Below, piece after piece: positions 1,324 to 58,917 of a stretch of 64,000 bases of DNA. The notes below the pieces were generated by a model. The model made no database searches. It worked only from the letters and a program-made list of their open reading frames with translations, and was not told the DNA's origin. The first letter of the stretch is position 1; every line of letters begins with the position of its first letter. The DNA comes from Candidatus Doudnabacteria bacterium (lineage in GTDB: Bacteria > Patescibacteriota > Doudnabacteria > UBA920 > O2-02-FULL-48-8), in the NCBI GenBank assembly GCA_016182875.1, contig JACPFQ010000004.1:259515-323514 (forward strand), written 5' to 3'. A program made the translations under genes and the position numbers.

Positions 1324-1563
1324 AAAAATGAAAAAATCACCTCTCTCAAGGTGAAATGTAAGTTTCCTGCTCGGGAGAGAATGGTTACTTGGCAATCTGA
1401 CTTTGACAGTTGCGGCACAGTGCCGGAATTTCACCGGACTTCCCCTACGACGTCCCGCCTGCGGCGGGAGTCGGAGTCCCGACCTTGCGTCGGGACAAAT
1501 AACCGTTATTCTTTTGTTAACTTTTGCTGAAACGATTCTAGCGCCGGCAAAAAATCTTGTCAA

Positions 1564-15579: not shown

Positions 15580-15700
15580 ATTAGAATTTCCCTCCCCTTG
15601 CAGGGGAGGGACCAAGGGTGGGGTGGATAGAGGCAACCTCATCCCACCTCTCCCCCGACCCCTCTCCTGGAAGGAGAGGGGAGATCTAATCTGAAGTAAA
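15580..15700. mobile_element. solo (ORF-less) member of the hairpin/G-rich/C-rich element family
   Basis: ccctcccct tgc aggggaggg ... gggtggggtggat ... atcccacctc ... cccctctcc tgga aggagagggg; about 85% identical to 20664-20770. Confidence 0.6.
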
Positions 15701-16941: not shown

Positions 16942-17156
16942 CAAGGTCTTCGGCTCCGTCGAGCTCCTGCCGTAACGCGACGATTGTGCCTGCCCGCCGA
17001 AGTTTTAACGAAGGCGGGAGGGGAATCGTCTTTTATTTTTGCCCAGAATTGCTGGTATAATGGATAGAGCATTAGCCCGCAGTTCCTCCCCTCTCCTTCC
17101 AGGAGAGGAATTCTCTCCCTCATCGGCCGCCGGGGGCTGGTCGGGGGAGAGGTGGG

Positions 17157-17523
17157 ATGAGAATCAACAGGAATCTTTTGCAAAAGTCCAAGCTACAGCG
17201 CAAATCCCAGAATCCCTGGGAAGCCAAGCTTTGGTATTACCTCAGAGCTAAAAGATTCCAGAATTTTAAATTCAGAAGGCAAGTGGTTATTGGTCCTTTT
17301 ATCGTTGATTTTTATTTGCATAAGCTAAGGCTGATCATAGAACTCGACAGTGGGCAGCATAATGAGAATATAAATATACGTAAGGACCAGGGCAGGCAAA
17401 ATATTTATAGATCAAGGCTATACAGTCCTCAGATTCTGGAACAATGAGCTAGACGATAATATAGACGGCGTACTGGATACAATTTACAAAGCTTTAACCA
17501 CCTCTCTCGACCGGAATAATTAA
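17157..17523 (+). pseudogene. DUF559 endonuclease-domain protein, frameshifted (frame change near 17390-17405)
   Basis: N-terminal part KLWYYLRAKRFQNFKFRRQVVIGPFIVDFY..ELDSGQH in frame 0; C-terminal part GYTVLRFWNNELDDNIDGVLDTIY continues in frame +1. Confidence 0.7.
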
Positions 17524-17593
17524 CCTCAGAAGCGGTCGGTCTCTCCTGGAAGGAGAGACAACTGCTGCCTGACGCTTCAGCCAAACCAAATCC

Positions 17594-20663: not shown

Positions 20664-20770
20664 TTAGGATTTCCCTCCCCTCCCAGGGGAGGGACTAAGG
20701 GTGGGGTGGGTAAAGCAACCTTAAAGCCACCTCTCCCCCGACCCCTCTCCTGCGAGGAGAGGGGAGTTCT
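20664..20770. mobile_element. solo hairpin/G-rich/C-rich element, copy 2 (upstream of groES)
   Basis: ccctcccctcccaggggaggg...gggtggggtgggta...gccacctc...cccctctcctgcgaggagagggg; paralog of 15580-15700. Confidence 0.6.
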
Positions 20771-33659: not shown

Positions 33660-33733
33660 TGGTCGGGGAGCCGGGAATCGAACCCGGTCTATCTGCTCCC
33701 AAAGCAGACGTACTACCGGTATACTACTCCCCG
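33660..33733 (-). tRNA. tRNA-Pro (anticodon TGG)
   Basis: 74 nt with encoded CCA; acceptor CGGGGAG/CTCCCCG; anticodon loop TTTGGGA; T-arm CCGGG-TTCGATT-CCCGG; flanked by inverted repeat agcctgaaattttt / aaaaatttcaggct. Confidence 0.85.
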
Positions 33734-34679: not shown

Positions 34680-34753
34680 TGGAGCGAGCAGGGGGAATCG
34701 AACCCCCGGCATCAGGTTGGAAACCTGAGGTATTGCCACTATACGATACTCGC
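34680..34753 (-). tRNA. tRNA-Gly (anticodon TCC)
   Basis: 74 nt; acceptor GCGAGTA/TGCTCGC; anticodon stem TCAGG/CCTGA with loop TTTCCAA; T-arm CGGGGG-TTCGATT-CCCCC; CCA encoded. Confidence 0.85.
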
Positions 34754-38000: not shown

Positions 38001-38773
38001 CGGATGCTTTGATCATCCAGGACAGCCAGGGAGTCCAAGATTCCACCTCATCCGCAGTCACCACTGACCGCGTGGGCAATGAATTGTACGTCTATAAGGG
38101 CACGCCAAAAGTTGAGGTTGTCGATCTGACAAATTCGACCTTGGTCAACGGTTCGGCCCAGGACGTCTACAAATTCAAAGTCACTGGCCAGGGCGGCACG
38201 GTAGCTGTCAAACAGGTTAAGCTTTCTGTGGCTTGGTCTGATGGCGGCACTGCCGACACCCTGGAAGTGGAATCATTGAAGTTCTACAAGAACGACGTTG
38301 ATATCACGGCGAGCGTGACTATGGTTGACGAAGACGGCAATGATGTGGAAACCACCTCCGGATTGACTGAAGATGACGACACACTGGTTGTCACCTTCAC
38401 CACCGAAGATGCCGTGGCTGCCGGCGAATCCGTGACCTACCGGGTCCGCGGCACGCCGCAAGCCTTCCGCGCCACCGGCACTGACACCGTCGGCGACAGT
38501 GTGTCCTTCAATGTCCCGTCTGATGCCAGCCACAACGGCACCTCAGTCTTCTTAAATGACCAGACTGATATTAACGCCGGCCAGTCCGAAATCATGGAGT
38601 TGTTCACTTCCGCCGCCGCTTCATCTAGCGATGGCACTGCTGCCAACTTCATCTGGTCCGACAACTCGGCAACCGCACACGTTTCAACCGCCAATGCCAC
38701 CAGCACTGGCGACTGGGCGAACGGCTACAATGTCCTCAACTTGCCGCTCGACGGCGAGACTTGGACAAAATAA
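35045..38773 (+). CDS. giant secreted surface protein (about 1220 aa; probable start MHTSELTL at 35108) with four N-terminal 45-aa modules and Ig-like beta-rich repeats
   Basis: Signal peptide; repeated G(T)xYLVxxGxKRGF...VFxSxGYSFS module four times; T/S/A/V/G-rich beta-strand repeats. Confidence 0.75.
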   Translation: MIVSYEQLILIQESTYKQEIIMHTSELTLTARKGIALGLAVSTLLWAATLWALPAFVSAAPHSDGCLINSSGTIYLVTGGQKRGFPTAEVFASHGYSFSQVVAASSEDTQAMGPVMVYADGTLVKGPSDPLVYLVANGQKRGFVSGSVFTGLGFSFASIVTAATNTFADLPMGANLESATERHTAGVLAKDSTGTVWQMTATGRKGVPSMEVFNSYGWSWSNVVAANAADTAAANEGVVAARASCSTGATPPPPPAGTMSVSLASNNPVAGTVIAGQGVADLAHFSFSGSGKVTSVVLKRLGVSSDTTLSAVYLYDGYVRLTDSATVSSGTITFNNTAGLFTVAGSRTVTVRSNIAASTSGQTVGVQLFSAAADVGTVSGSPLSGNMHTVAAAPSNFATVDFNATTTPSNATISPQDDYTMWQNVVTVGNTKVRLYAFKLRQVGSVVASDLQNFDLFVDGTKVASVAALDSEGYANFDLSAAPVTLETGSRTIKMLGDIIGGSNRNFAFSLRQAVDGFFVDNDFNQGVLPTAASATFSARGNTDDNLQTISTGTITFTKRADSPSGNVVNAASNVLLAKFDVKAAGESMKVETLRVRIDDDDGDEMTLRNGALYLDGAQIGSTAAISGDTGTDPDYTEYTFGSSFIVVPGTPRVLEVKADIFDNDGTNSVAASDTYQVEIIGSANVQRLTSLGYVSAPSTAAEANTLTVATGSLTAALDTSLANHTIVAPKYGYMIGKYTIQQTTTEGANITSVVVDFDEKADAFDGSDDLTNLYIKMGSYTSPIKATVTDTGNTFSTNVAIAAGQVMALEVYADVAASATNGDGTADTIESSVTVASTTTQSSTSATADEVDGQTITAGAGTFATAVAPDTPVNRITYGNQEVEAARFKITATNETYTLRQWNMKVGASPISSAIVEARLYYGSTLLGSAPFSVTSNTIAQITGLESKAEAVVAANTSRTFSVKLLLNQIGGNYGTSQQNVAVTSDALIIQDSQGVQDSTSSAVTTDRVGNELYVYKGTPKVEVVDLTNSTLVNGSAQDVYKFKVTGQGGTVAVKQVKLSVAWSDGGTADTLEVESLKFYKNDVDITASVTMVDEDGNDVETTSGLTEDDDTLVVTFTTEDAVAAGESVTYRVRGTPQAFRATGTDTVGDSVSFNVPSDASHNGTSVFLNDQTDINAGQSEIMELFTSAAASSSDGTAANFIWSDNSATAHVSTANATSTGDWANGYNVLNLPLDGETWTK

Positions 38774-38841
38774 TCTGAATCTAGCTTGAAGAGCTAATCG
38801 GGTTATTATCCGCCTTCGCTGAAAAGCTTCGGCGGACAGGC

Positions 38842-38875
38842 AAAGCCCCCGCAATTTGCGGGGGCTTTGGTTTGG
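38842..38875 (+). terminator. rho-independent terminator
   Basis: aaagcccccgc aattt gcgggggcttt followed by ggtttgg. Confidence 0.6.
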
Positions 38876-39100
38876 TATAATTTTAGGGCAGTTGGGAGTT
38901 AAAACCCCCTCTTAGAATAAGAGTGGGTAGGGTGAGTTAGACGTAAAGAACCCCTGCCTCTAACCCCTCTGCTCAGCCTAATTCTTAGCATCTCCCCTTG
39001 TTCCAAGGGGAGATGGAACTGCGGCCTTACGCTTTGCCTTAAAGAATTAACTTGCAGTTAAACCCCTCTTAGAATAAGAGGGGGTAGGGGGAGTTAGAAC

Positions 39101-39419
39101 ATGAGCTATTTGTATAATAATTTAAAGCTTAAAAACTTCAGGCGTAAACTAAGAAGCAACCAGACAGACTGTGAAGCCTTGCTCTGGTCTGTGTTGCGAA
39201 ACAAGCAATATAGGCAATTATATCTTAGATTTCTTTTGTCCTAAATTAAGATTGGGAATTGAGCTTGACGGTGGTCAGCACGCCAAGCAAAAACTCTACG
39301 ACAACCAGAGAACCAAATATCTTGAATCACAGAATATTAAAGTCCTTAGATTCTGGGATAACGAGGTGCTTGAGAATCTTGAGGGAGTTTATCAAAAGAT
39401 CTTAGATCATTGCCTCTAA
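39101..39419 (+). pseudogene. DUF559 endonuclease-domain protein disrupted by an internal deletion or frameshift (two frames)
   Basis: MSYLYNNLKLKNFRRKLRSNQTDCEALLWSVLRNKQ (frame 2) then IGNYILDFFCPKLRLGIELDGGQH...KVLRFWDNEVLENLEGVY (frame 0). Confidence 0.7.
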
Positions 39420-39717
39420 CCCCCTCTAACTCCCCCTTGTTCCAAGGGGGAGGATCCCAATTCTTTTCGGGCATTAGTAAATCCCCTCCAATTGCTTGAT
39501 TTCGCTGGAAGTTTTACTATATCCTTACTTAACTTATACTTAGCATTGATATAGCATTTATTTTAGTGTCATCCTGAAACAAGTTTTTGGGATCTCGCTT
39601 AGTTACTGAAAAACCCCCGCCGAAAGGCGGGGGTTTTGTTTGTTGACAGGCTGAATCATTTAATTTATCATAAGTACGAAAGTTATACTTTCTAACTAAA
39701 TTGATTTAGGGAAACTC

Positions 39718-39981
39718 ATGTCCATAGTTAAAGTCAAAAATAAATACCAGGTGACTTTGCCCGCTTATGTCCGCAAGCAAGCCGGAATCGAAATTGGGGA
39801 TATTTTGGAAGCAAAAATTGAAAACGGTAAAATTATGCTTTCACCTCAAAGCACGATTGATAAGAGATTAGCCAAGGCGCTCGAAGAGATAGAGAAGGGC
39901 CAGACTTATGGACCCTTTGATACTGCAGAAGAAATGATCACAGCTCTTCATCGCGAGGTAAAAAAACTTAAGCGAAAGTAG
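39718..39981 (+). CDS. AbrB/MazE/SpoVT-type antitoxin
   Basis: 87 aa; KYQVTLPAYVRKQAGIEIGDIL swapped-hairpin motif. Confidence 0.65.
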   Translation: MSIVKVKNKYQVTLPAYVRKQAGIEIGDILEAKIENGKIMLSPQSTIDKRLAKALEEIEKGQTYGPFDTAEEMITALHREVKKLKRK

Positions 39982-39988
39982 AGTTATA

Positions 39989-40234
39989 ATGAGGCTTGAC
40001 TTTTCGCCTAGTTTTGTGAAAGCCTACAATAAGGCTCCCACAAAAATCCAGCGAGCATTTGACAAACAATCAAAATTGCTTCTTCAAAATTTAAACTACC
40101 CTTCATTGCGCGCCAAGAAATACAGCGAGACAGAAAATATCTGGCAAGCGAGAGTTGATAAATCTTGGCGGTTTTATTTTCGCATCAAAGGCGATGTATA
40201 TTATCTACTTGATATTATTTCTCATCCTAAATAA
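39989..40234 (+). CDS. RelE/ParE-family toxin
   Basis: 81 aa; WQARVDKSWRFYFRIKGDVYYLLDIISHPK C-terminal RelE-like motif; 8-bp gap from the antitoxin gene. Confidence 0.6.
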   Translation: MRLDFSPSFVKAYNKAPTKIQRAFDKQSKLLLQNLNYPSLRAKKYSETENIWQARVDKSWRFYFRIKGDVYYLLDIISHPK

Positions 40235-40239
40235 CTTCC

Positions 40240-40929
40240 ATGAACAAAAAAGCATTATTTATAGGAATCGGAGCCGCCTTGGTTATTTTTTTTGGGTACT
40301 TAGCCTACCAGCAATGGGGGGATAAGCCGCAGTTGGTTACTTACAAGGAGCCAAGCTTAACGGCGGAAGCCAGAGCGATTTATGAGCAGCGTTTGAGCGA
40401 AGCCCAAAAAGCCGTTGCTGAGATCAATGACCAAACTCCGGCCGAAGAAAAATTCAACCGCTATATGGCTTTGGGCAGCGCCAAGTTCAGTTTAGGCTTC
40501 TATCTCGACGCCAAAAACGCTTATCAGCAGGCTTTGGAAGTCATGCCCAACAACGCCTTTGCCTGGCAGGCCCAATCCACCACCCTAACCGCCATGGGCG
40601 ACTACAAAGGAGCTTTGAACGCCATCAAGAAAGCAATTTCCTTGGACCCCAAACAAGCCGATTTCTGGAAGTGGCAAATTGATTTGGAAAAAGACCACTT
40701 CCAGGCAAACAGCGACAGGGTTGACGAGCTTTATGGAGAGGCTTTGAGCAAAACCGATAACAACATCAATATAATCACGGCTTACGCGACCTTTTTGGAG
40801 CAGACAGGCGATTTGGAAGGCGCTTTGGAGCAGTGGCAGAAAGCCTATGAAGTCAATACTGCCCAGCGAGAAGTTTATCAGGCGGAGATAGACAGGCTTC
40901 AGAGGAGGCTGGAGAAACTGCTCAAATAA
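40240..40929 (+). CDS. tetratricopeptide-repeat protein with N-terminal TM anchor
   Basis: 229 aa; several 34-aa A..Y..AL...P.N repeats. Confidence 0.65.
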   Translation: MNKKALFIGIGAALVIFFGYLAYQQWGDKPQLVTYKEPSLTAEARAIYEQRLSEAQKAVAEINDQTPAEEKFNRYMALGSAKFSLGFYLDAKNAYQQALEVMPNNAFAWQAQSTTLTAMGDYKGALNAIKKAISLDPKQADFWKWQIDLEKDHFQANSDRVDELYGEALSKTDNNINIITAYATFLEQTGDLEGALEQWQKAYEVNTAQREVYQAEIDRLQRRLEKLLK

Positions 40930-40989
40930 TTTAAGGATCAGGCAGCAGTTTACCCCTCCTCTTTAGAGGAGGGGTAGGGGAGGAGTTCT

Positions 40990-41388
40990 ATGGTTTTGCC
41001 CAAAACAAAGCTACGCAGAGAATTAAGGCATAATTCAACTCCAGCGGAAAAAGTTTTCTGGGCTATGATTTGCGACAGAAAAGTATTAGATCTAAAATTC
41101 CGCCGTCAGCACAGCATCGGGCCTTACATAGTTGATTTCTACTGCGCGGCACTTAGGTTAATTATAGAGATTGACGGCGATACTCATGGAACTGTTGAGG
41201 GAATTAAAGCTGATAAAAAGCGAACCGCTTATTTAGAATCACTGGGCTATACTGTCCTAAGATACGCAAATTCAGATATACTAAATAACCTTGAAGGAGT
41301 ATTCCAGGATTTAACCAGCAAGCTTCAGAAACTACTGCCTAATTCCACCTCCTCACCCATCCTCTCCTCCTTGCAGGAGGAGAGGTGA
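40990..41388 (+). CDS. DUF559 endonuclease-domain protein (intact)
   Basis: 132 aa; EKVFWAMICDRKVLDLKFRRQHSIGPYIVDFYC..LRLIIEIDGDTH...GYTVLRYANSDI family pattern. Confidence 0.8.
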   Translation: MVLPKTKLRRELRHNSTPAEKVFWAMICDRKVLDLKFRRQHSIGPYIVDFYCAALRLIIEIDGDTHGTVEGIKADKKRTAYLESLGYTVLRYANSDILNNLEGVFQDLTSKLQKLLPNSTSSPILSSLQEER

Positions 41389-41438
41389 AACTGCGAGAAA
41401 CTAGGTCAATTAGAAATTGATTCTATATAACAATAACA

Positions 41439-42173
41439 ATGTATCCAAGAAACAAAAATTTAATCCTTTGGGCGGGAGTTATTTTATTGGCGGGAGTTGC
41501 TGTGGGATTAAATATCCTTAGAAATCCAGCCTTAGTCAGCAAGGAAAGCGAAACAGACCTAAGAAGCGAGACGGAAGCGGTTGGGGGCGAAGCGGTCGAG
41601 CCTGCCAAAGATAACGGTTTAGCATCGCCAGCTCCGCAGCAGCCGCAAACTCCGCTGCCTGCTCAAAATTCATCTTCCCCAGCGGACGTTAAGAGCTACA
41701 AAAACACCGAGTACGAATTCGAGTTCACTTATCCGGCCAGCTTCGGCGAAGTGGCTGAAAAAATTTATCAATGCCCGCGGGGTTTCATGACGATCGGGAC
41801 ATTTATCGGCAACCCCAACATTGATTTTGGGTTTGTCTCGTCTGATTATGAGAAATGCGCGGCAGCCGACGCACCCCTGTTTGAAATTCTGAAGTATGAC
41901 TTGTTGGACAAGAAGTTAAAGCTTTACAGCTCAAACCCGGTTTCACCGACTGTTGAGGTGACGATCGAACAAGTTATACCTACCCGAACCGCCAACATTC
42001 TGGCTTATATTATTAAAAATACTATTGAAGCAGATGGCAACGGTAGCCCCGCGGCTGTTCTCAAAAGCCCAAACCCGGCCATTGGCCCGCTTATTTTTCG
42101 AACCCATGGAATGTCCCATGGAATGTCCTATGAGGATGGAATAAAATTGCTGGAGGCGATTATACAGAATTGA
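41439..42173 (+). CDS. hypothetical membrane-anchored / secreted protein
   Basis: 244 aa; N-terminal TM then PQ-rich linker. Confidence 0.45.
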   Translation: MYPRNKNLILWAGVILLAGVAVGLNILRNPALVSKESETDLRSETEAVGGEAVEPAKDNGLASPAPQQPQTPLPAQNSSSPADVKSYKNTEYEFEFTYPASFGEVAEKIYQCPRGFMTIGTFIGNPNIDFGFVSSDYEKCAAADAPLFEILKYDLLDKKLKLYSSNPVSPTVEVTIEQVIPTRTANILAYIIKNTIEADGNGSPAAVLKSPNPAIGPLIFRTHGMSHGMSYEDGIKLLEAIIQN

Positions 42174-42438: not shown

Positions 42439-44151
42439 GTGTTTGTTGATAAGTCTCAAAACCACAAATTATTAAGGACAATCAATCAAAATATGAAATA
42501 TTTCAAAAATTTTAGCCGGCAAAAAGCCTTGATGGTCTCAGTGCTTGCGCTGGCTTTCTTGGTGGTTGCCGGCGGAGCCTTTGCCGCTCTGACGTTTACC
42601 GCCACTACCACCTCCAGCGACGGCGCTTTAACGATTAGTTCCGCCACCACCAATGCCATAAGTTTGGATTCCGGCACCACTGGCGCTGTCAATCTTGGCA
42701 CTGGCAATAATGCCAAGACCATCAGCATCGGAACCGGCACTGCAGGCAACACCATTAACGTTGGCACGGACAACACTACTCTTGATGCTATTAACGTAGG
42801 TTCAGCCCTGGATACTGTGATCATAACCGGCACAAGCGCAGGATTATCTAAAATTGAGTTGGCGGCAACTCGCCCAACCGGCGCTACGAGCTCTTATCAA
42901 ACACTTGCTGGCGATCTTAACTACGTAGGAGCCGCGGGCGGTACTGGCACATATCACGCTGGCGTCATGGGCAACTTTTTGGGCGATACTCTGACCAACG
43001 CTAATGCCACTATCCACGCCGGCACAATCGGCAAGTACTCTGTGACCACGAGCGACGCTTTGGTTGGACCAAAAGCAGGCTTGGTTGGTGAAGCGGAAAC
43101 TAGCGTTGCCAATGCCGCAGTGATGGCAGTGCTTGGCGGTGATACTGCGACAGTTGCTCCTGGAGCGGCTTATGCTGTCCGTTATCTCAACTCTACGGCA
43201 GCTTCTAAGTTCACTTACGGTCTTGATCTCTTCTCCGCGGCTGTCGGCGGTTACAAGGCCGTTGATTACGGCACAGCCGATATCCGACTTCAAAACGGCG
43301 AGACGATTAGCAACGCCACTGACGGCGCAATCACCATCAGCGGCGCGCTTACTGGCACACCGGCAGTGCTTTCTACTACCACAGCCGGCGGAGGGAGCAA
43401 CCTTAAACTGCAATACAAGCAGATAACCAATGCCTTAACTGGCGACTATGAAGGTTTGCATGTCAGAGTTTCCACTGATGTCGGCTCAGCCGATAATGCC
43501 GTTAACGGCGCCCAAATCAAAGCCGTGGCTAATGACGTGGCTTCCCAGATTGACGTTGAAATTCTCCGCGGCGTTTACACCAGCGTGGATGCCAAAGACA
43601 ATTTGGTCACCACTGCTCGCGCGTTTGAAGCATCACTCGATGGTTTGCCCGGATCAACAATCACCGAAGCCGTAGGCATTGAATTGATGAACAACTCTTC
43701 TGGTGCCCAAACGAACTCCTATGGGCTATCCATCAACGGTGGTACAGCTTCCGGTCATAAAGCATACACAAGAGATATTCGATTGCAAAATGGCGAACTC
43801 ATTGACAACGCCACGGATGGCACGATAGCTTTCTCTGGAATAATTGCGGCAAACGGCGGTTTGGTTCAAAGGTACACGACTAATGCTAATGTTCCAAATG
43901 CGTCTGGCCAAAATGTGATTAGGCTTAACGCATTAGCAGCTGACTTTGCCACGATCGCTGGCGGTACCGCAGGCCAAATTATTACCATCATTTTCAGCGA
44001 TGCAGTGGTGGTGACTGACGACAACGCCAACGGCGCCAATGCGATAAATCTGGTAGGTAGCGCTAACCTTACATCTGCTGCTGATGATGTACTTGAGTTA
44101 GTATTTGACGGAACCAGCTGGTTTGAAGTTTCGCGCTCAGTGAACAACTAA
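42439..44151 (+). CDS. secreted Thr/Gly/Ala/Asn-rich repeat protein (probable start MKYFKNF at 42493)
   Basis: Signal peptide; low-complexity TGTGAVNLGTGNNAKTISIGTG-type repeats. Confidence 0.6.
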   Translation: MFVDKSQNHKLLRTINQNMKYFKNFSRQKALMVSVLALAFLVVAGGAFAALTFTATTTSSDGALTISSATTNAISLDSGTTGAVNLGTGNNAKTISIGTGTAGNTINVGTDNTTLDAINVGSALDTVIITGTSAGLSKIELAATRPTGATSSYQTLAGDLNYVGAAGGTGTYHAGVMGNFLGDTLTNANATIHAGTIGKYSVTTSDALVGPKAGLVGEAETSVANAAVMAVLGGDTATVAPGAAYAVRYLNSTAASKFTYGLDLFSAAVGGYKAVDYGTADIRLQNGETISNATDGAITISGALTGTPAVLSTTTAGGGSNLKLQYKQITNALTGDYEGLHVRVSTDVGSADNAVNGAQIKAVANDVASQIDVEILRGVYTSVDAKDNLVTTARAFEASLDGLPGSTITEAVGIELMNNSSGAQTNSYGLSINGGTASGHKAYTRDIRLQNGELIDNATDGTIAFSGIIAANGGLVQRYTTNANVPNASGQNVIRLNALAADFATIAGGTAGQIITIIFSDAVVVTDDNANGANAINLVGSANLTSAADDVLELVFDGTSWFEVSRSVNN

Positions 44152-44306
44152 GCTTAACCCCGCCTCGCCTTGGCTCGCTAAAGGGGTAGAGCACAAGCGT
44201 AAAGCTTTGGCTCTACCTCCCCTAACCCCTCCTATTCTAGGAGGGGAAAAAACCAAGAGGCGAGTCTAGGCAGGCAATCCTAATCATTAATCATTATGCC
44301 TAAAAT

Positions 44307-57893: not shown

Positions 57894-58276
57894 AAAATAA
57901 CAGGCAAGCCGGTTTATCTTTGATGGAAGTGGTTATAAGCATGGCCATGATACTGGTTCTTTTTATTTTGTATATCGCGGCGCAAAACACGACGATTCAC
58001 ACAAGGAAACTACGCTATGAAAATTTGGCTTACCATGCGGCCAACAAAAAAATGGAAGAACTTCGGGCGACGGCTTTTAATTCACTTCCCGTCTCGGGCG
58101 CCATTTCCGACTCAATGCTTGGCCAAATTCCATCCGGGGCCGGCAGTTTTACGGTCAATGACTACGCCGGCTTCAGCGGTTTGAAGGAAGTTATCGTGAC
58201 TGTAACTTGGAATGACGGCATTAGCAAGCAGGTCGTTTTGAAAACTTTAGCTGGGAGCGGAGGAATTAATCCATGA
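57890..58276 (+). CDS. prepilin-type N-terminal cleavage/methylation domain protein (pseudopilin)
   Basis: 128 aa; QAGLSLMEVVISMAMILVLFI class III signal; overlaps the pilC stop. Confidence 0.7.
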   Translation: MKNNRQAGLSLMEVVISMAMILVLFILYIAAQNTTIHTRKLRYENLAYHAANKKMEELRATAFNSLPVSGAISDSMLGQIPSGAGSFTVNDYAGFSGLKEVIVTVTWNDGISKQVVLKTLAGSGGINP

Positions 58277-58917
58277 CGAGAATGCGGTATATGTTTAACG
58301 GCAGCGCAACGCGTATCGGTAAGCGTTTGACGTTTAGCGATCAGATTTCCCCCCTTGGAACAAGGGGGGATCAAGGGGGGTTAGACGCTGGCTTCACCCT
58401 CATCGAGGTCATAATCGTGGTCTTCATGCTCGGGATGGCCATGCTCGTGCTGACCAGCCTTTTCCTCAACCAAAACCAAGTTTACCAAAGCCAGACCGCG
58501 GAGCTTAACGTCACGGCCGATGCCCGGTTCGCCTTGGACGATATTGATTCCTCGGTTCGAGCCGCGGACGTGGTGGCGGCAAGCTATAGTTCATATACTA
58601 CAGGAACGCAAGTTTTGGTTCTGCAGATTCCTTCCATCAATGCTTCCAACCAAATCATCGCGGCGGCTTATGATTATTTCGTTTACTATCTAACCGGCAG
58701 TGATTTCTTTCGGCAAATCTTCCCCAATGCATCAAGCAGCCGGCAGGCCACAACGAAAAAAATAGCTTCCAATGTCACAGGCTTGCTTTTCAGTTACGAC
58801 AATGGCGACTCGGCTTTGGTTAAGCAAGTGACCACGGACTTAACCATCCAGCAGTCAGGCGGAAGGTACAATCGGTCAATCACAATTTCTTCCAAGTCGA
58901 GATTAAGAAATAACTAA
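58273..58917 (+). CDS. prepilin-type protein with unusually long leader (pilin motif GFTLIEVIIVVFML at residue about 40)
   Basis: 214 aa; the leader region contains a poly-C/poly-G hairpin (ccccccttggaacaagggggg) at 58350-58385. Confidence 0.55.
   Translation: MTRMRYMFNGSATRIGKRLTFSDQISPLGTRGDQGGLDAGFTLIEVIIVVFMLGMAMLVLTSLFLNQNQVYQSQTAELNVTADARFALDDIDSSVRAADVVAASYSSYTTGTQVLVLQIPSINASNQIIAAAYDYFVYYLTGSDFFRQIFPNASSSRQATTKKIASNVTGLLFSYDNGDSALVKQVTTDLTIQQSGGRYNRSITISSKSRLRNN

What the first reader, a model, noticed from the sequence alone, without database searches (positions are those of the whole stretch)
38895..39460. Second DUF559 cassette, with tandem solo mini-element, internally deleted gene, and TIR gggggagttaga
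Region 38900-38965 is a solo unit: hairpin ccctcttagaataagagtggg, G-rich gtagggtgagttagac, C-rich cctctaacccctc. Region 39057-39100 repeats the hairpin cccctcttagaataagagggg and the G-rich terminus gtagggggagttagaac, which abuts the ATG at 39101. The ORF is split between two frames, with the RQ-PIG segment missing. The right terminus ctctaactccccc (39424-39436) is the reverse complement of the left terminus and runs into hairpin ctccccc-ttgttccaa-gggggag.
Basis: seen in the sequence. Interest (0 to 1): 0.6.

Follow-up and report, generated by a model that had tools for sequence, protein, structure and literature searches.

The report
Decayed DUF559 nuclease cassette with triplex-repeat ends
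This is a broken copy of a small nuclease gene (DUF559, the E. coli YcjD family) framed by an inverted pair of BoxC-type triplex-forming palindromic repeats, with a gene-less pair of the same repeats beside it; the same gene-plus-repeat arrangement recurs across many bacterial phyla and may point to the enzyme behind repeats whose origin has been unexplained since the 1990s.

Summary
38888-39022 is a gene-less mini-element and 39054-39452 a DUF559 cassette. They share a 39-nt left end (92%) and a 17-nt right hairpin, and the cassette has a perfect 13-nt terminal inverted repeat. Against an intact relative in another Doudnabacteria genome, the gene has lost 32 nt (11 codons plus a frameshift).

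Each end is a pyrimidine-arm hairpin followed by a purine tail that mirrors the hairpin's 3' arm. This is the architecture of the known BoxC/PIT/TM intrastrand-triplex repeats of E. coli.

In 80 loci from many phyla, such hairpins are 24-fold enriched next to DUF559 genes. They form inverted pairs that match within each element. Non-coding ends are 93-100% conserved while ORFs are about 70% identical.

One DUF559 clade sits in frame inside HsdM, HsdR or MetH, bounded exactly by the units. E. coli ycjD has a canonical TM unit beside it, and genomes lacking that locus carry fewer copies (median 8 vs 20).

Best reading: a nuclease-repeat partnership analogous to RAYT-REPIN, of which this locus is a decaying member. 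Movement has not been seen directly and the mechanism is inferred. I found no paper in the held library linking DUF559 to these repeats.

The parts
38888..39022 (+). Gene-less mini-element (doublet of two inverted triplex-type units). Layout: GCAGTT 38888-93; left hairpin 38904-38928; G tail 38929-38942; centre GTAAAGAACCCC 38943-38954; C tail 38955-38969; right hairpin 38989-39015; AACTGC 39017-22.
   Evidence: Sequence. Repeats shared with the cassette: D1, D4, D10. GCAGTT/AACTGC pairing. Folds as separate hairpins with z -3.8 (+ strand) and -4.8 (- strand).
39054..39100 (+). Left end of the DUF559 cassette: GCAGTT 39054-59; hairpin CCCCTCTTA-GAA-TAAGAGGGG 39063-39083; purine tail GTAGGGGGAGTTAGAAC 39084-39100. 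The tail mirrors the hairpin's 3' arm and carries the likely ribosome-binding GGAG.
   Evidence: 43/46 nt identical to the left end of the intact element in L099.
39101..39419 (+). DUF559 pseudogene. The N-terminal part is in frame 1 (39101 to about 39209) and the C-terminal part in another frame (about 39213-39419, stop TAA 39417-19). It has a 32-nt internal deletion that removes the conserved KF(R/L)RQ segment.
   Evidence: Pfam DUF559 on both halves. 11-residue gap against 116-aa relatives P0121-P0125. 32 gap columns against L099.
39411..39452 (+). Right end of the cassette: C tail TGCCTCTAACCCCCTCTAACTCCCCC, containing the complement of the left tail (39425-39437), then hairpin CTCCCCCTTG-TTC-CAAGGGGGAG at 39430-39452. 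The outer AACTGC is missing.
   Evidence: (I5). 32/34 nt identical to L099.
40945..41394 (+). Intact DUF559 cassette (ORF 40990-41388, 132 aa) with its own unit pair and GCAGTT/AACTGC ends.
   Evidence: (E 5.9e-33). PDB 3HRL E 4.6e-17.
17079..17565 (+). Third DUF559 cassette, frameshifted by one extra A in the run at about 17390 (ORF 17157-17447, continuing in another frame to about 17523). GCAGTT/AACTGC ends.
   Evidence: The frameshift was read from the sequence.
15587..15685 (.). Gene-less doublet (hairpin + G tail, about 17 nt, C tail + hairpin). Its tail and right hairpin are related to the 17-kb cassette.
   Evidence: Three-hairpin fold, z -4.4.
20670..20768 (.). Second gene-less doublet of the same subfamily, in the groES upstream region.
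44150..44250 (.). Degenerate doublet: decayed left hairpin, GGGGTAGAG tail, GCGTAAAG centre, C tail, intact hairpin 44226-44246.
58345..58388 (+). Single unit (hairpin 58348-58370 plus tail CAAGGGGGGTTAGA) lying in frame in the long leader of a pilin-like ORF (58273-58917).

Best explanation
The locus is a decaying member of a nuclease-repeat partnership.

Shown:
- A small Vsr-like PD-(D/E)XK nuclease gene (DUF559, the E. coli YcjD family) sits between two inverted copies of a structured repeat unit.
- Each unit is a pyrimidine-arm/purine-arm hairpin followed by a purine tail that mirrors the purine arm. This is the architecture of BoxC/PIT/TM intrastrand-triplex repeats.
- The neighbouring 135-nt element is the same two ends without the gene.
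- The gene here is dead (32-nt deletion).
- Across phyla the unit pair travels with the gene and bounds in-frame insertions into other genes.
- The non-coding ends are conserved far more strongly than synonymous sites of the ORF.

Inferred:
- The gene-less element is most simply an internal-deletion derivative, comparable to a MITE or a REPIN.
- The nuclease recognises and nicks or cuts the folded ends (hairpin, cruciform or triplex). Host repair or recombination then copies or relocates the units. The nuclease is purely hydrolytic and cannot rejoin DNA itself.
- In free-standing cassettes the G tail doubles as the Shine-Dalgarno sequence. Pairing with the 3' C tail could limit expression of a potentially toxic nuclease.
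- Like RAYT genes with REPINs, the gene is low-copy and positionally stable on short time scales, while its repeats spread.
For: Local anatomy and decay:
-.
- An intact relative with the same ends lies in a different genomic context in another Doudnabacteria genome (L099).
- Between the window cassette and L099, ends are 43/46 and 32/34 identical, the ORF 226/316, and third codon positions 46/105.

Survey of 80 loci from many phyla:
- 62 have a left pyrimidine-arm hairpin and 61 a right one.
- Density is 4.87 per kb within about 150 nt of the gene, against 0.20 per kb more than 300 nt away.
- Left and right ends of one element match as inverted repeats better than ends of different elements (mean score 20.9 vs 11.3; 0 of 10,000 permutations reach the observed mean).

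Triplex rule in 161 units:
- In mirror register, the tail base opposite an arm G is G in 958 of 993 cases.
- Opposite an arm A it is A 189, T 137, G 25, C 13.
- Mirror match exceeds direct match (p = 1.5e-8).
- This agrees with the purine-motif triplex shown in vitro for E. coli TM/BoxC (PMC4666352).

Modular insertion:
- One DUF559 clade lies in frame in HsdM, in HsdR at several sites, and in MetH.
- Against solved HsdM 3KHK, a 151-aa insert replaces a 7-residue loop.
- The right unit is 36-38/38 identical across four phyla while the ORF is 64-70% identical, and homology stops at the outer tails.
- 11 of 11 metagenome hits to that unit have DUF559 in HsdR (7) or HsdM (4).

Protein:
- Pfam DUF559 E 5.9e-33; PDB 3HRL E 4.6e-17; homing endonuclease I-Bth0305I E 3.4e-3; NCBIfam YcjD model E 1.7e-24.
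- Asp49, Glu60, Asp62 and His66 are invariant in the 24-sequence family alignment. Asp49 aligns with the mutated catalytic Asp196 of I-Bth0305I.

E. coli:
- A canonical TM unit lies about 190 nt 3' of ycjD. It has the same sequence type as 'type A mm' TMECO in Table 1 of PMC4666352.
- In a spread sample, genomes with that locus have a median of 20 copies (13-29, n=37). Genomes without it have a median of 8 (1-22, n=21). Mann-Whitney p = 5e-8, not corrected for phylogeny.
Against: - No transposition event was observed. Two identical DUF559 proteins seen on many contigs always sit in one context.
- No target-site duplications were found (read from the sequences).
- No empty site was found for any window element. 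Short-read contigs break at the repeats, and a metagenome scan for the cassette's end found nothing.
- The three DUF559 copies in the window are only about 40-45% identical, so they are old lineages rather than recent copies.
- A purely hydrolytic nuclease has no known way to move DNA to non-homologous sites.
- Holder et al. found no in vivo triplex signal by DMS and no mobility genes near E. coli TMs.
- The E. coli copy-number contrast follows phylogroups and may amount to only two or three independent events.
- My unit detector and its thresholds were designed after seeing the data.
- The 80 loci are relatives of one DUF559 subfamily, picked by two peptide patterns.
Confidence: 0.6

Rival explanations
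1. Homing into pre-existing repeat doublets. The gene-less doublet is not a deletion derivative but the empty target. The nuclease cuts the centre of a doublet, and the gene is copied in from a filled doublet, using the repeat units themselves as the homology.
For: - The protein family is related to a proven homing endonuclease (PHROGs and PADLOC homing-endonuclease hits).
- There are no target-site duplications.
- Free-standing genes sit exactly between tails-inward unit pairs, which is the geometry of the solo doublets and of the E. coli A+B pairs.
- Two of three copies in the window are decayed, as in the homing-gene life cycle.
Against: - The ORF usually overlaps the units: the tail carries the Shine-Dalgarno sequence, and the stop codon lies in or beyond the C tail or hairpin. 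The gene is therefore not a clean insert between them.
- The solo centre shares CGTAAAG with the 5' leader of a full element (L001), which fits deletion.
- The in-frame clade has the opposite geometry, with tails outward.
- No filled/empty pair was found.
Confidence: 0.2
2. Not mobile. The flanks are cis-regulatory structures (5' and 3' UTR hairpins, ribosome-binding-site sequestration, or autoregulatory binding sites) of a host DNA-repair nuclease. Gene-less copies are scars of gene loss or unrelated BoxC-type repeats.
For: - The G tail lies in Shine-Dalgarno position (median 20 nt from hairpin end to start codon; GGAG/GAGG/AGGA motif in 7 of 13).
- Positions are stable across samples.
- Both the protein and the ends are under strong purifying selection.
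- The cassette lies between two terminators as its own transcription unit.
Against: - The same module, with identical ends, sits in frame in different host genes (HsdM, HsdR, MetH), where a ribosome-binding site or UTR has no role.
- Single units occur in frame inside ORFs.
- There are about 20 gene-less copies per E. coli genome at unrelated loci.
- Related elements lie in different contexts in two Doudnabacteria genomes.
- PIT elements showed no promoter or terminator activity, as reported in PMC4666352.
Confidence: 0.12
3. Coincidental association. BoxC/TM-type repeats are hotspots of instability that accumulate in variable intergenic DNA, where small accessory genes such as DUF559 also reside.
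For: - TM loci are more rearranged among E. coli strains (PMC4666352).
- The ycjD locus is itself a replacement hotspot, alternating with eefRABCD.
Against: - 24-fold local enrichment, with inverted-pair geometry tied to the gene's ends.
- Within-element matching of ends.
- Invariant ends across phyla, moving with the gene into coding regions.
Confidence: 0.04
4. Invertible switch. The inverted repeats mediate programmed inversion of the DUF559 segment.
For: [quoted passage not shown] That enrichment probably reflects these same inverted repeats.
Against: - No recombinase lies nearby in the window.
- In all 80 loci, oriented by the gene, the unit geometry is class-specific rather than mixed.
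- Repeats of 13-35 nt whose tail carries the ribosome-binding site on one side only would not give a symmetric switch.
Confidence: 0.03
5. Partial assembly artefact. The tandem solo-plus-cassette arrangement, or the internal deletion, was produced by mis-joining at repeats in a metagenome-assembled genome.
For: - Independent Logan contigs end inside the repeats at about 38933 and 39431.
- Neither half-ORF is on record elsewhere.
Against: - The 32-nt deletion lies in unique coding sequence, away from the repeats.
- A tandem full-plus-partial arrangement is also seen in L099.
- The elements themselves are corroborated by other genomes.
Confidence: 0.1

Closest known systems
BoxC / PIT / TM(ECO) intrastrand-triplex repeats of E. 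coli and many other bacteria (Holder et al. 2015, PMC4666352; earlier BoxC and Hoyne/Maher PIT work as cited there)
   Same: - Unit architecture: pyrimidine arm, 3-5-nt loop, purine arm, 2-4-nt spacer, mirror purine third strand with G opposite G and A or T opposite A.
- Occurrence as tails-inward inverted pairs (vs 85, 93).
- Dispersed, mostly intergenic copies.
- The unit beside E. coli ycjD has the 'type A mm' TMECO sequence.
   Different: - Here the units frame a DUF559 gene. The papers I could read report no associated gene or mobility function and do not mention DUF559, ycjD or an endonuclease.
- The Doudnabacteria units are more A/T-containing (TTAGA/TAAGAG).
- They carry an extra outer GCAGTT/AACTGC inverted repeat.
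REPIN-RAYT systems / REPtrons (REP-associated tyrosine transposase flanked by its REPs; PMC3116915, PMC3733652)
   Same: - A low-copy nuclease gene flanked by inverted copies of the palindromic repeat that is dispersed through the genome.
- Gene-less inverted doublets as the abundant form.
- No target duplications.
- Positional stability of the gene.
- Repeat abundance tracking gene presence (suggestive only here).
   Different: - The nuclease is a hydrolytic Vsr-like PD-(D/E)XK fold, not an HUH/Y1 transposase that can rejoin DNA.
- There is no 5' GTAG tag.
- Units carry a triplex-type tail.
- No experimental evidence links the protein to the repeats.
EDxHD / Vsr-like homing endonucleases (I-Bth0305I, PDB 3R3P; PMC3239194)
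   Same: - Catalytic fold and key residues.
- Selfish-gene hallmarks: patchy occurrence, several diverged copies, frequent decay.
   Different: - Not in an intron or intein.
- Lacks the N-terminal NUMOD DNA-binding region (only about 110-130 aa).
- Flanked by structured inverted repeats.
- Inserts in frame without splicing.
TIR transposons and their MITEs
   Same: Terminal inverted repeats, plus a short gene-less derivative that keeps both ends.
   Different: - No DDE or other known transposase.
- No target-site duplication.
- The copies are old and diverged rather than near-identical.
Rickettsia palindromic elements (RPE) and other repeats inserted in frame into genes (as reviewed in PMC3184786, PMC3733652)
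   Same: Palindromic repeat units tolerated in frame inside protein-coding genes: HsdM, HsdR, MetH and a pilin-like leader.
   Different: Here the units can carry a nuclease domain with them. RPEs have no associated enzyme.
E. coli YcjD (NCBIfam PRK09767) and Vsr
   Same: - Same Pfam family (DUF559) and fold.
- ycjD occupies a variable locus with a TM unit beside it.
   Different: - No function is known for YcjD.
- Vsr is a T:G mismatch nickase partnered with Dcm. No methyltransferase partner is seen next to the window's genes.

Membership tests
DUF559 (Pfam PF04480) / Vsr-like PD-(D/E)XK nucleases | Significant match to the family profile above the curated cut-off | tested here: met
   - 40990-41388: E 5.9e-33, 113 bits against a cut-off of 20.6.
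- The two halves of the 39-kb gene: 21.0 and 81.2 bits.
- The 17-kb gene: 75.5 bits.
DUF559 (Pfam PF04480) / Vsr-like PD-(D/E)XK nucleases | Catalytic Asp, Glu/Asp and His retained | tested here: met
   - D49, E60, D62 and H66 are invariant in the 24-sequence alignment.
- D49 aligns with the mutated D196 of I-Bth0305I.
- In the 39-kb pseudogene these residues are still encoded (ILDFF...IELDGGQH), but the conserved KF(R/L)RQ strand is deleted and the frame is broken.
BoxC / PIT / TM intrastrand-triplex repeats | Three consecutive blocks: pyrimidine arm, complementary purine arm, mirror purine (G/A/T) third strand, with short loops | tested here: met
   - All 11 window units and 150 units from other loci were scored.
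- Opposite an arm G the tail base is G in 958/993.
- Opposite an arm A it is A 189, T 137, other 38.
- Mirror match exceeds direct match, p = 1.5e-8.
- Compare Table 1 and the description in PMC4666352.
BoxC / PIT / TM intrastrand-triplex repeats | Dispersed multicopy occurrence, often as inverted pairs | tested here: met
   - 13 perfect hairpins in 64 kb, against 0.28 expected.
- Four gene-less doublets plus one single unit.
BoxC / PIT / TM intrastrand-triplex repeats | Actual triplex formation by the single strand | not testable with these tools
   - The folding tool models Watson-Crick pairs only.
- G-quadruplex formation is an alternative: 144 of 161 units have four G2+ runs and 61 have four G3+ runs.
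REPIN-RAYT / REPtron | Nuclease gene flanked by inverted copies of the genome's dispersed palindromic repeat, with gene-less inverted doublets elsewhere | tested here: met
REPIN-RAYT / REPtron | The enzyme is an IS200/IS605-like HUH Y1 transposase | tested here: not met
   The protein is DUF559/Vsr-like. So this is an analogue, not a member.
REPIN-RAYT / REPtron | REP with conserved 5' GTAG (or CGTC) tag | tested here: not met
   GTAG follows the hairpin in some window units, but on the wrong side, and it is not conserved in other phyla (TTAGG, CCGGG, CTAGG).
Homing endonuclease gene | Resides in a self-splicing intron or intein, or free-standing next to its cleavage site | tested here: not met
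   - No Rfam intron or other RNA family in the region.
- In-frame insertions have no intein motifs and stay open through the whole insert.
Homing endonuclease gene | Cleaves the empty allele, with gene conversion into it | not testable with these tools
   No empty allele of any window element was found.
TIR transposon / MITE | Terminal inverted repeats shared by autonomous and gene-less copies | tested here: met
TIR transposon / MITE | Target-site duplication | tested here: not met
   - No direct repeats abut GCAGTT...AACTGC in four elements.
- One 23-bp direct repeat flanks a single unit in L013.
TIR transposon / MITE | Encoded DDE/serine/tyrosine transposase | tested here: not met
   The only ORF is the about 110-130-aa DUF559 nuclease.

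The most novel reading that the evidence does not exclude
DUF559 proteins (including E. coli YcjD) are the long-missing enzymes that create, spread or maintain BoxC/PIT/TM intrastrand-triplex repeats. Together they would form a new class of nuclease-repeat genetic element with these properties:
- It is driven by a hydrolytic Vsr-like nuclease that recognises a folded (hairpin or triplex) DNA end.
- It is present across most bacterial phyla and in some archaea.
- It can insert in frame into genes such as hsdM, hsdR and metH.
Probability: 0.35. Interest if true: 0.9.

Novelty: new variant of a known kind. Interest (0 to 1): 0.75.

Why it matters
BoxC/PIT/TM repeats have been known in E. coli since the 1990s. 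They occur in hundreds of genomes and form very stable triplexes in vitro. Yet the most thorough study I could read found no associated gene, no mobility function and no role beyond local instability (PMC4666352).

DUF559 is a very large family; two searches here returned 3,882 and 1,598 homologues. It has a solved structure but no known function.

Finding the two physically and evolutionarily coupled gives each a candidate partner. The question also becomes testable in E. coli K-12: YcjD against BoxC oligonucleotides, and a ycjD knockout or overexpression followed by tracking the 23 TM sites.

If the coupling holds, it adds a second, mechanistically different example of the RAYT-REPIN type of nuclease-repeat association. 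It would also explain the PSP..GRG-type low-complexity inserts seen in restriction-modification proteins, and offer a structure-specific nuclease of possible practical use.

For annotation, it shows why assemblies break at these sites and why DUF559 ORFs are so often truncated or frameshifted.

Tried and rejected
- Rfam, at gathering threshold on the whole window and at permissive E-values on 38700-41600, gave nothing relevant.
- An integron attC reading of GTT/AAC ends was rejected: the R''/R' core consensus is not met (read from the sequence).
- GCAGTT...AACTGC pairs elsewhere in the window are chance matches inside genes.
- Strain comparison for the deletion failed. P0001 is not on record. 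Neighbour-gene contigs stop at the repeats. Neither half-ORF is on record.
- The search for recent transposition was negative. Identical proteins P0107 and P0077 each occupy one context in all samples.
- Synteny search for empty sites: flanks of L001, L002 and L099 have no orthologous site in the window. A paralogous gene end at about 46 kb lacks the element, but it is not an orthologue.
- A metagenome scan for the cassette's left end returned 0 hits.
- A test for RNA versus DNA structure by wobble asymmetry was uninformative. There were only 25 mismatches in 1270 stem pairs (T.G 5, C.A 1).
- A 'swapped arms' model of the ends applies only to a Nitrospira/Uhrbacteria subgroup: 6 of 25 elements, against 17 that are ordinary inverted repeats.
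- The E. coli ycjD presence/absence polymorphism is a large replacement by the eef operon, not a precise excision.
- Ten literature searches found no paper linking DUF559 or YcjD to BoxC/TM or describing it as a repeat-bounded element. The closest hint is its enrichment among predicted inversion targets.
- Structure prediction and fold search were not run, because sequence matches to solved structures were already decisive.
Full report
**1. The observation**

The sequence at 38886-39460 is as described.

- *Mini-element, 38888-39022.* It starts with GCAGTT and ends with AACTGC. It contains a left hairpin (38904-38928), a G-rich tail (38929-38942), 12 central nucleotides, a C-rich tail (38955-38969) and a second hairpin (38989-39015).
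- *Cassette, from 39054.* After a 31-nt spacer the same left end recurs: GCAGTT, hairpin 39063-39083, then tail GTAGGGGGAGTTAGAAC abutting the ATG at 39101. A split DUF559 reading frame follows. The right end (39411-39452) carries the exact complement of the left tail and a hairpin.
- *Repeats.* A 39-nt direct repeat (92%), a 17-nt and a 13-nt exact repeat shared by solo and cassette, and a perfect 13-nt inverted repeat (39086-98 / 39425-37).
- *Pfam.* The two half-ORFs match DUF559 positions 3-33 and 40-107.
- *Organism.* The window is from a Candidatus Doudnabacteria (CPR) genome: the best hit for the neighbouring intact copy is 99% identical.
- *Chance.* The window has 13 perfect pyrimidine-arm hairpins, against 0.28 expected. 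All 13 lie in elements of this type.

**2. The gene is a decayed copy**

- The nearest intact relatives are 116 aa and 67-76% identical. The window copy lacks exactly 11 residues (CNGYKFLRQYS).
- A Doudnabacteria genome (GCA_016186915.1, locus L099) carries the intact element with the same ends: GCAGTT, hairpin, tail, ATG ... TAA, C tail, hairpin, AACTGC. It lies in a different gene neighbourhood.
- The DNA alignment shows one 32-nt gap in the window copy.
- Between the two elements the non-coding ends are 43/46 and 32/34 identical. The ORF is 226/316 identical and third codon positions are 46/105. The ends are therefore under much stronger nucleotide-level constraint than the coding sequence.
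- Of the window's other two DUF559 cassettes, 40945-41394 is intact. 17079-17565 is frameshifted by an extra A in a homopolymer run.
- The three genes are only about 40-45% identical to one another, and each has its own end sequences.

**3. More gene-less elements in the window**

- Doublets of the form hairpin + G tail ... C tail + hairpin lie at 15587-15685 and 20670-20768. Both are related to the 17-kb cassette.
- A degenerate doublet lies at about 44150-44250.
- A single unit sits in frame in the leader of a pilin-like ORF at 58345-58388.
- As single strands the doublets fold into three hairpins, with z-scores from -3.5 to -4.8.

**4. The architecture is general**

I fetched 80 loci encoding relatives from many bacterial phyla and one archaeon.

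- 62 have a pyrimidine-arm hairpin just upstream and 61 just downstream.
- Density is 4.87 per kb near the gene and 0.20 per kb more than 300 nt away.
- Free-standing genes mostly show 'hairpin + G tail ... gene ... C tail + hairpin'.
- The two ends of one element match each other as inverted repeats far better than the ends of other elements do (0 of 10,000 permutations).

A distinct DUF559 clade has an HYRGGFxFxG N-terminal extension.

- It lies in frame inside larger genes with the opposite geometry, 'C tail + hairpin ... DUF559 ... hairpin + G tail'.
- The hosts are HsdM, HsdR (at least three sites) and, in Flavobacterium, MetH.
- Against solved HsdM 3KHK, the insert of 151 residues replaces a 7-residue surface loop and begins and ends with the units.
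- The same module occurs in HsdM (L003) and HsdR (L023, L025, L034). Its right unit is 36-38/38 identical in four phyla while the ORF is 64-70% identical. Similarity stops at the outer tails.
- A metagenome scan with that unit returned 11 loci. All have DUF559 upstream and are in HsdR (7) or HsdM (4).
- Extra single units also sit in frame in some of these genes.

**5. What the units are**

In 161 oriented units the tail is a mirror repeat of the hairpin's purine arm.

- Opposite an arm G the tail has G in 958 of 993 cases.
- Opposite an arm A it has A (189) or T (137), and rarely G or C.
- Mirror matching beats direct matching (p = 1.5e-8).

This is the base-triplet rule of an antiparallel purine-motif triplex. 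The same segment often has four G runs, so a G-quadruplex is an alternative.

A literature search on the tail sequence led to Holder et al. 2015 (PMC4666352). The motif is the BoxC/PIT/'TM' repeat. Their findings:

- 23 copies in E. coli MG1655.
- Loop types TTA and CCG.
- Five inverted A+B pairs.
- A stable triplex in vitro that was not detected in vivo.
- Presence in more than 260 genomes.
- No associated gene class, and 'never ... activities that provide genetic mobility'.

That paper does not mention DUF559, ycjD or an endonuclease. None of my ten searches found such a link. The nearest hint is that DUF559 proteins are enriched among predicted inversion targets, presumably because of these same inverted repeats.

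**6. E. coli**

- ycjD (DUF559) lies between sapF and fabI. It has a degenerate hairpin at its stop codon, an approximately 40-bp duplication of its 3' end, and a canonical unit (CCCCTCGCCCCTCTGGGGAGAGGGTTAGGGTGAGGGG, 'type A mm') about 190 nt downstream.
- That unit family is in all 5,426 complete genomes, with a median of 17 places and about 20 in K-12.
- ycjD is present in 3,346 genomes. Elsewhere it is replaced by the eef efflux operon (PMC12817139).
- In an evenly spread sample, genomes with the ycjD-linked copy have 13-29 places (median 20, n=37). Genomes without it have 1-22 (median 8, n=21; many have 1-4). This is suggestive but follows phylogroups.
- At hrpB-mrcB the A+B doublet is present in K-12 and O157. 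It is reduced to a single hairpin in one strain and absent in a UPEC strain, with imprecise borders.

**7. The protein**

- DUF559, E 5.9e-33.
- Solved relatives: 3HRL (E 4.6e-17) and the Vsr-like homing endonuclease I-Bth0305I (E 3.4e-3).
- YcjD model, E 1.7e-24.
- Weak homing-endonuclease hits in PADLOC and PHROGs.
- The Asp, Glu/Asp and His positions that are invariant in the family alignment are intact in the 41-kb copy.

**8. Interpretation**

Shown:
- A nuclease gene and a structured repeat pair form one conserved module.
- Gene-less versions coexist with it.
- Modules occupy different sites, including in-frame positions.
- The ends are the most constrained part.

Inferred:
- The nuclease acts on its folded ends, and host repair spreads or maintains the units. 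This is analogous to RAYT-REPIN, but with a hydrolytic Vsr-like enzyme.
- In free-standing copies the G tail serves as ribosome-binding site.
- The locus under review is a degenerating member, with a deletion derivative beside it.

Against:
- No movement was observed.
- There are no target duplications and no empty site for any window element.
- Positions were stable in the two populations checked.
- The copies are old and diverged.
- There is no obvious way for a hydrolase to transpose DNA.

Rivals considered: homing into pre-existing doublets, pure cis-regulation, coincidence, an invertible switch, and partial assembly artefact. Each is weighed in the structured fields.

**9. Verdict**

The units are a known repeat family and the gene a known family of unknown function. 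Their coupling appears not to have been described, at least in the literature I could search. It makes the origin of BoxC/TM repeats experimentally addressable.

Noticed in passing
window 58345-58388 (ORF 58273-58917): A single triplex-type unit lies in frame (ISPLGTRGDQGG) within an unusually long leader, just before the GFTLIEV prepilin motif of a pilin-like protein. This would be an in-frame repeat insertion in this genome.
   Followed up: partly
window 20670-20768 and 15587-15685: Two near-identical gene-less doublets differ mainly in their hairpin loops. One lies directly upstream of groES (start 20789). Any effect on groES expression is unknown.
   Followed up: partly
window about 17385-17395: The 17-kb DUF559 gene is interrupted by one extra A in the run CAAAAT. 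This could be a real frameshift, a sequencing error, or slippage-prone sequence.
   Followed up: partly
window 38871-38879 and 17054-17062: An extended -10-like TGGTATAAT lies 7-19 nt upstream of GCAGTT, both at the solo element and at the 17-kb cassette. In each case it follows the upstream gene's terminator. It is unclear whether it belongs to the element.
   Followed up: no
window 38943-38949, 20713-20718, 44199-44206; L001 about 1480: A short motif (C)GTAAAG recurs in the centre of three gene-less doublets. It also occurs between the G tail and the ATG of a full element in another Doudnabacteria genome.
   Followed up: no
window 39718-40234: A MazE-family antitoxin gene and a weak ParE-like toxin gene lie immediately downstream of the cassette.
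   Followed up: no
window 1391-1445 (-), 33663-33733 (-), 34683-34753 (-): An AdoCbl-II riboswitch and two tRNA genes were the only Rfam matches at gathering threshold.
   Followed up: no
L081-L084 ends (window about 38933 and about 39431): Independent short-read contigs from four samples all terminate inside the repeat units. These elements therefore fragment assemblies.
   Followed up: yes
L013 about 1825-1905: A perfect 23-bp direct repeat (AAACAGTATCTCGTGCCAACGAG) flanks the single right-hand unit inside an hsdM gene, duplicating TVSRANE in the protein. It is the only target-duplication-like feature seen.
   Followed up: partly
L008, L012, L019, L020, L022: In Nitrospira, Uhrbacteria and related elements, the left unit's purine arm equals the right unit's tail and vice versa (GGGGAGG / GGAGGGG). 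The two ends are mirror variants rather than strict inverted repeats.
   Followed up: partly
L032 and L069 (Flavobacterium): DUF559 is inserted in frame in methionine synthase MetH, between the cap region and the B12-binding domain. The insert is bounded by short hairpin-encoded SPP.PEGG / APPSGAGG segments.
   Followed up: partly
L109, L111, L006, L010: Tandem expansions of several units (and of unit-plus-spacer blocks) are translated in frame within hsdM or hsdR next to the DUF559 insert.
   Followed up: no
L104 (E. coli K-12 1351200-1351830) and L105 (IAI39): ycjD alternates with the eefRABCD efflux operon at sapF-fabI. On the fabI side the breakpoint lies about 45 nt beyond the TM unit. 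K-12 also has an approximately 40-bp duplication of the ycjD 3' end.
   Followed up: partly
L117-L120 (E. coli hrpB-mrcB intergenic region): Three alleles of a TM doublet were found: full A+B pair (K-12, O157), collapsed to one hairpin (N5D43), and absent with non-identical borders (UPEC957C). The polarity (insertion or deletion) is undetermined.
   Followed up: partly
L099 1911-1970: Downstream of the intact Doudnabacteria element lies a further partial left unit, with 23 nt inserted between hairpin and tail. This is another tandem full-plus-partial arrangement, like the one in the window.
   Followed up: no
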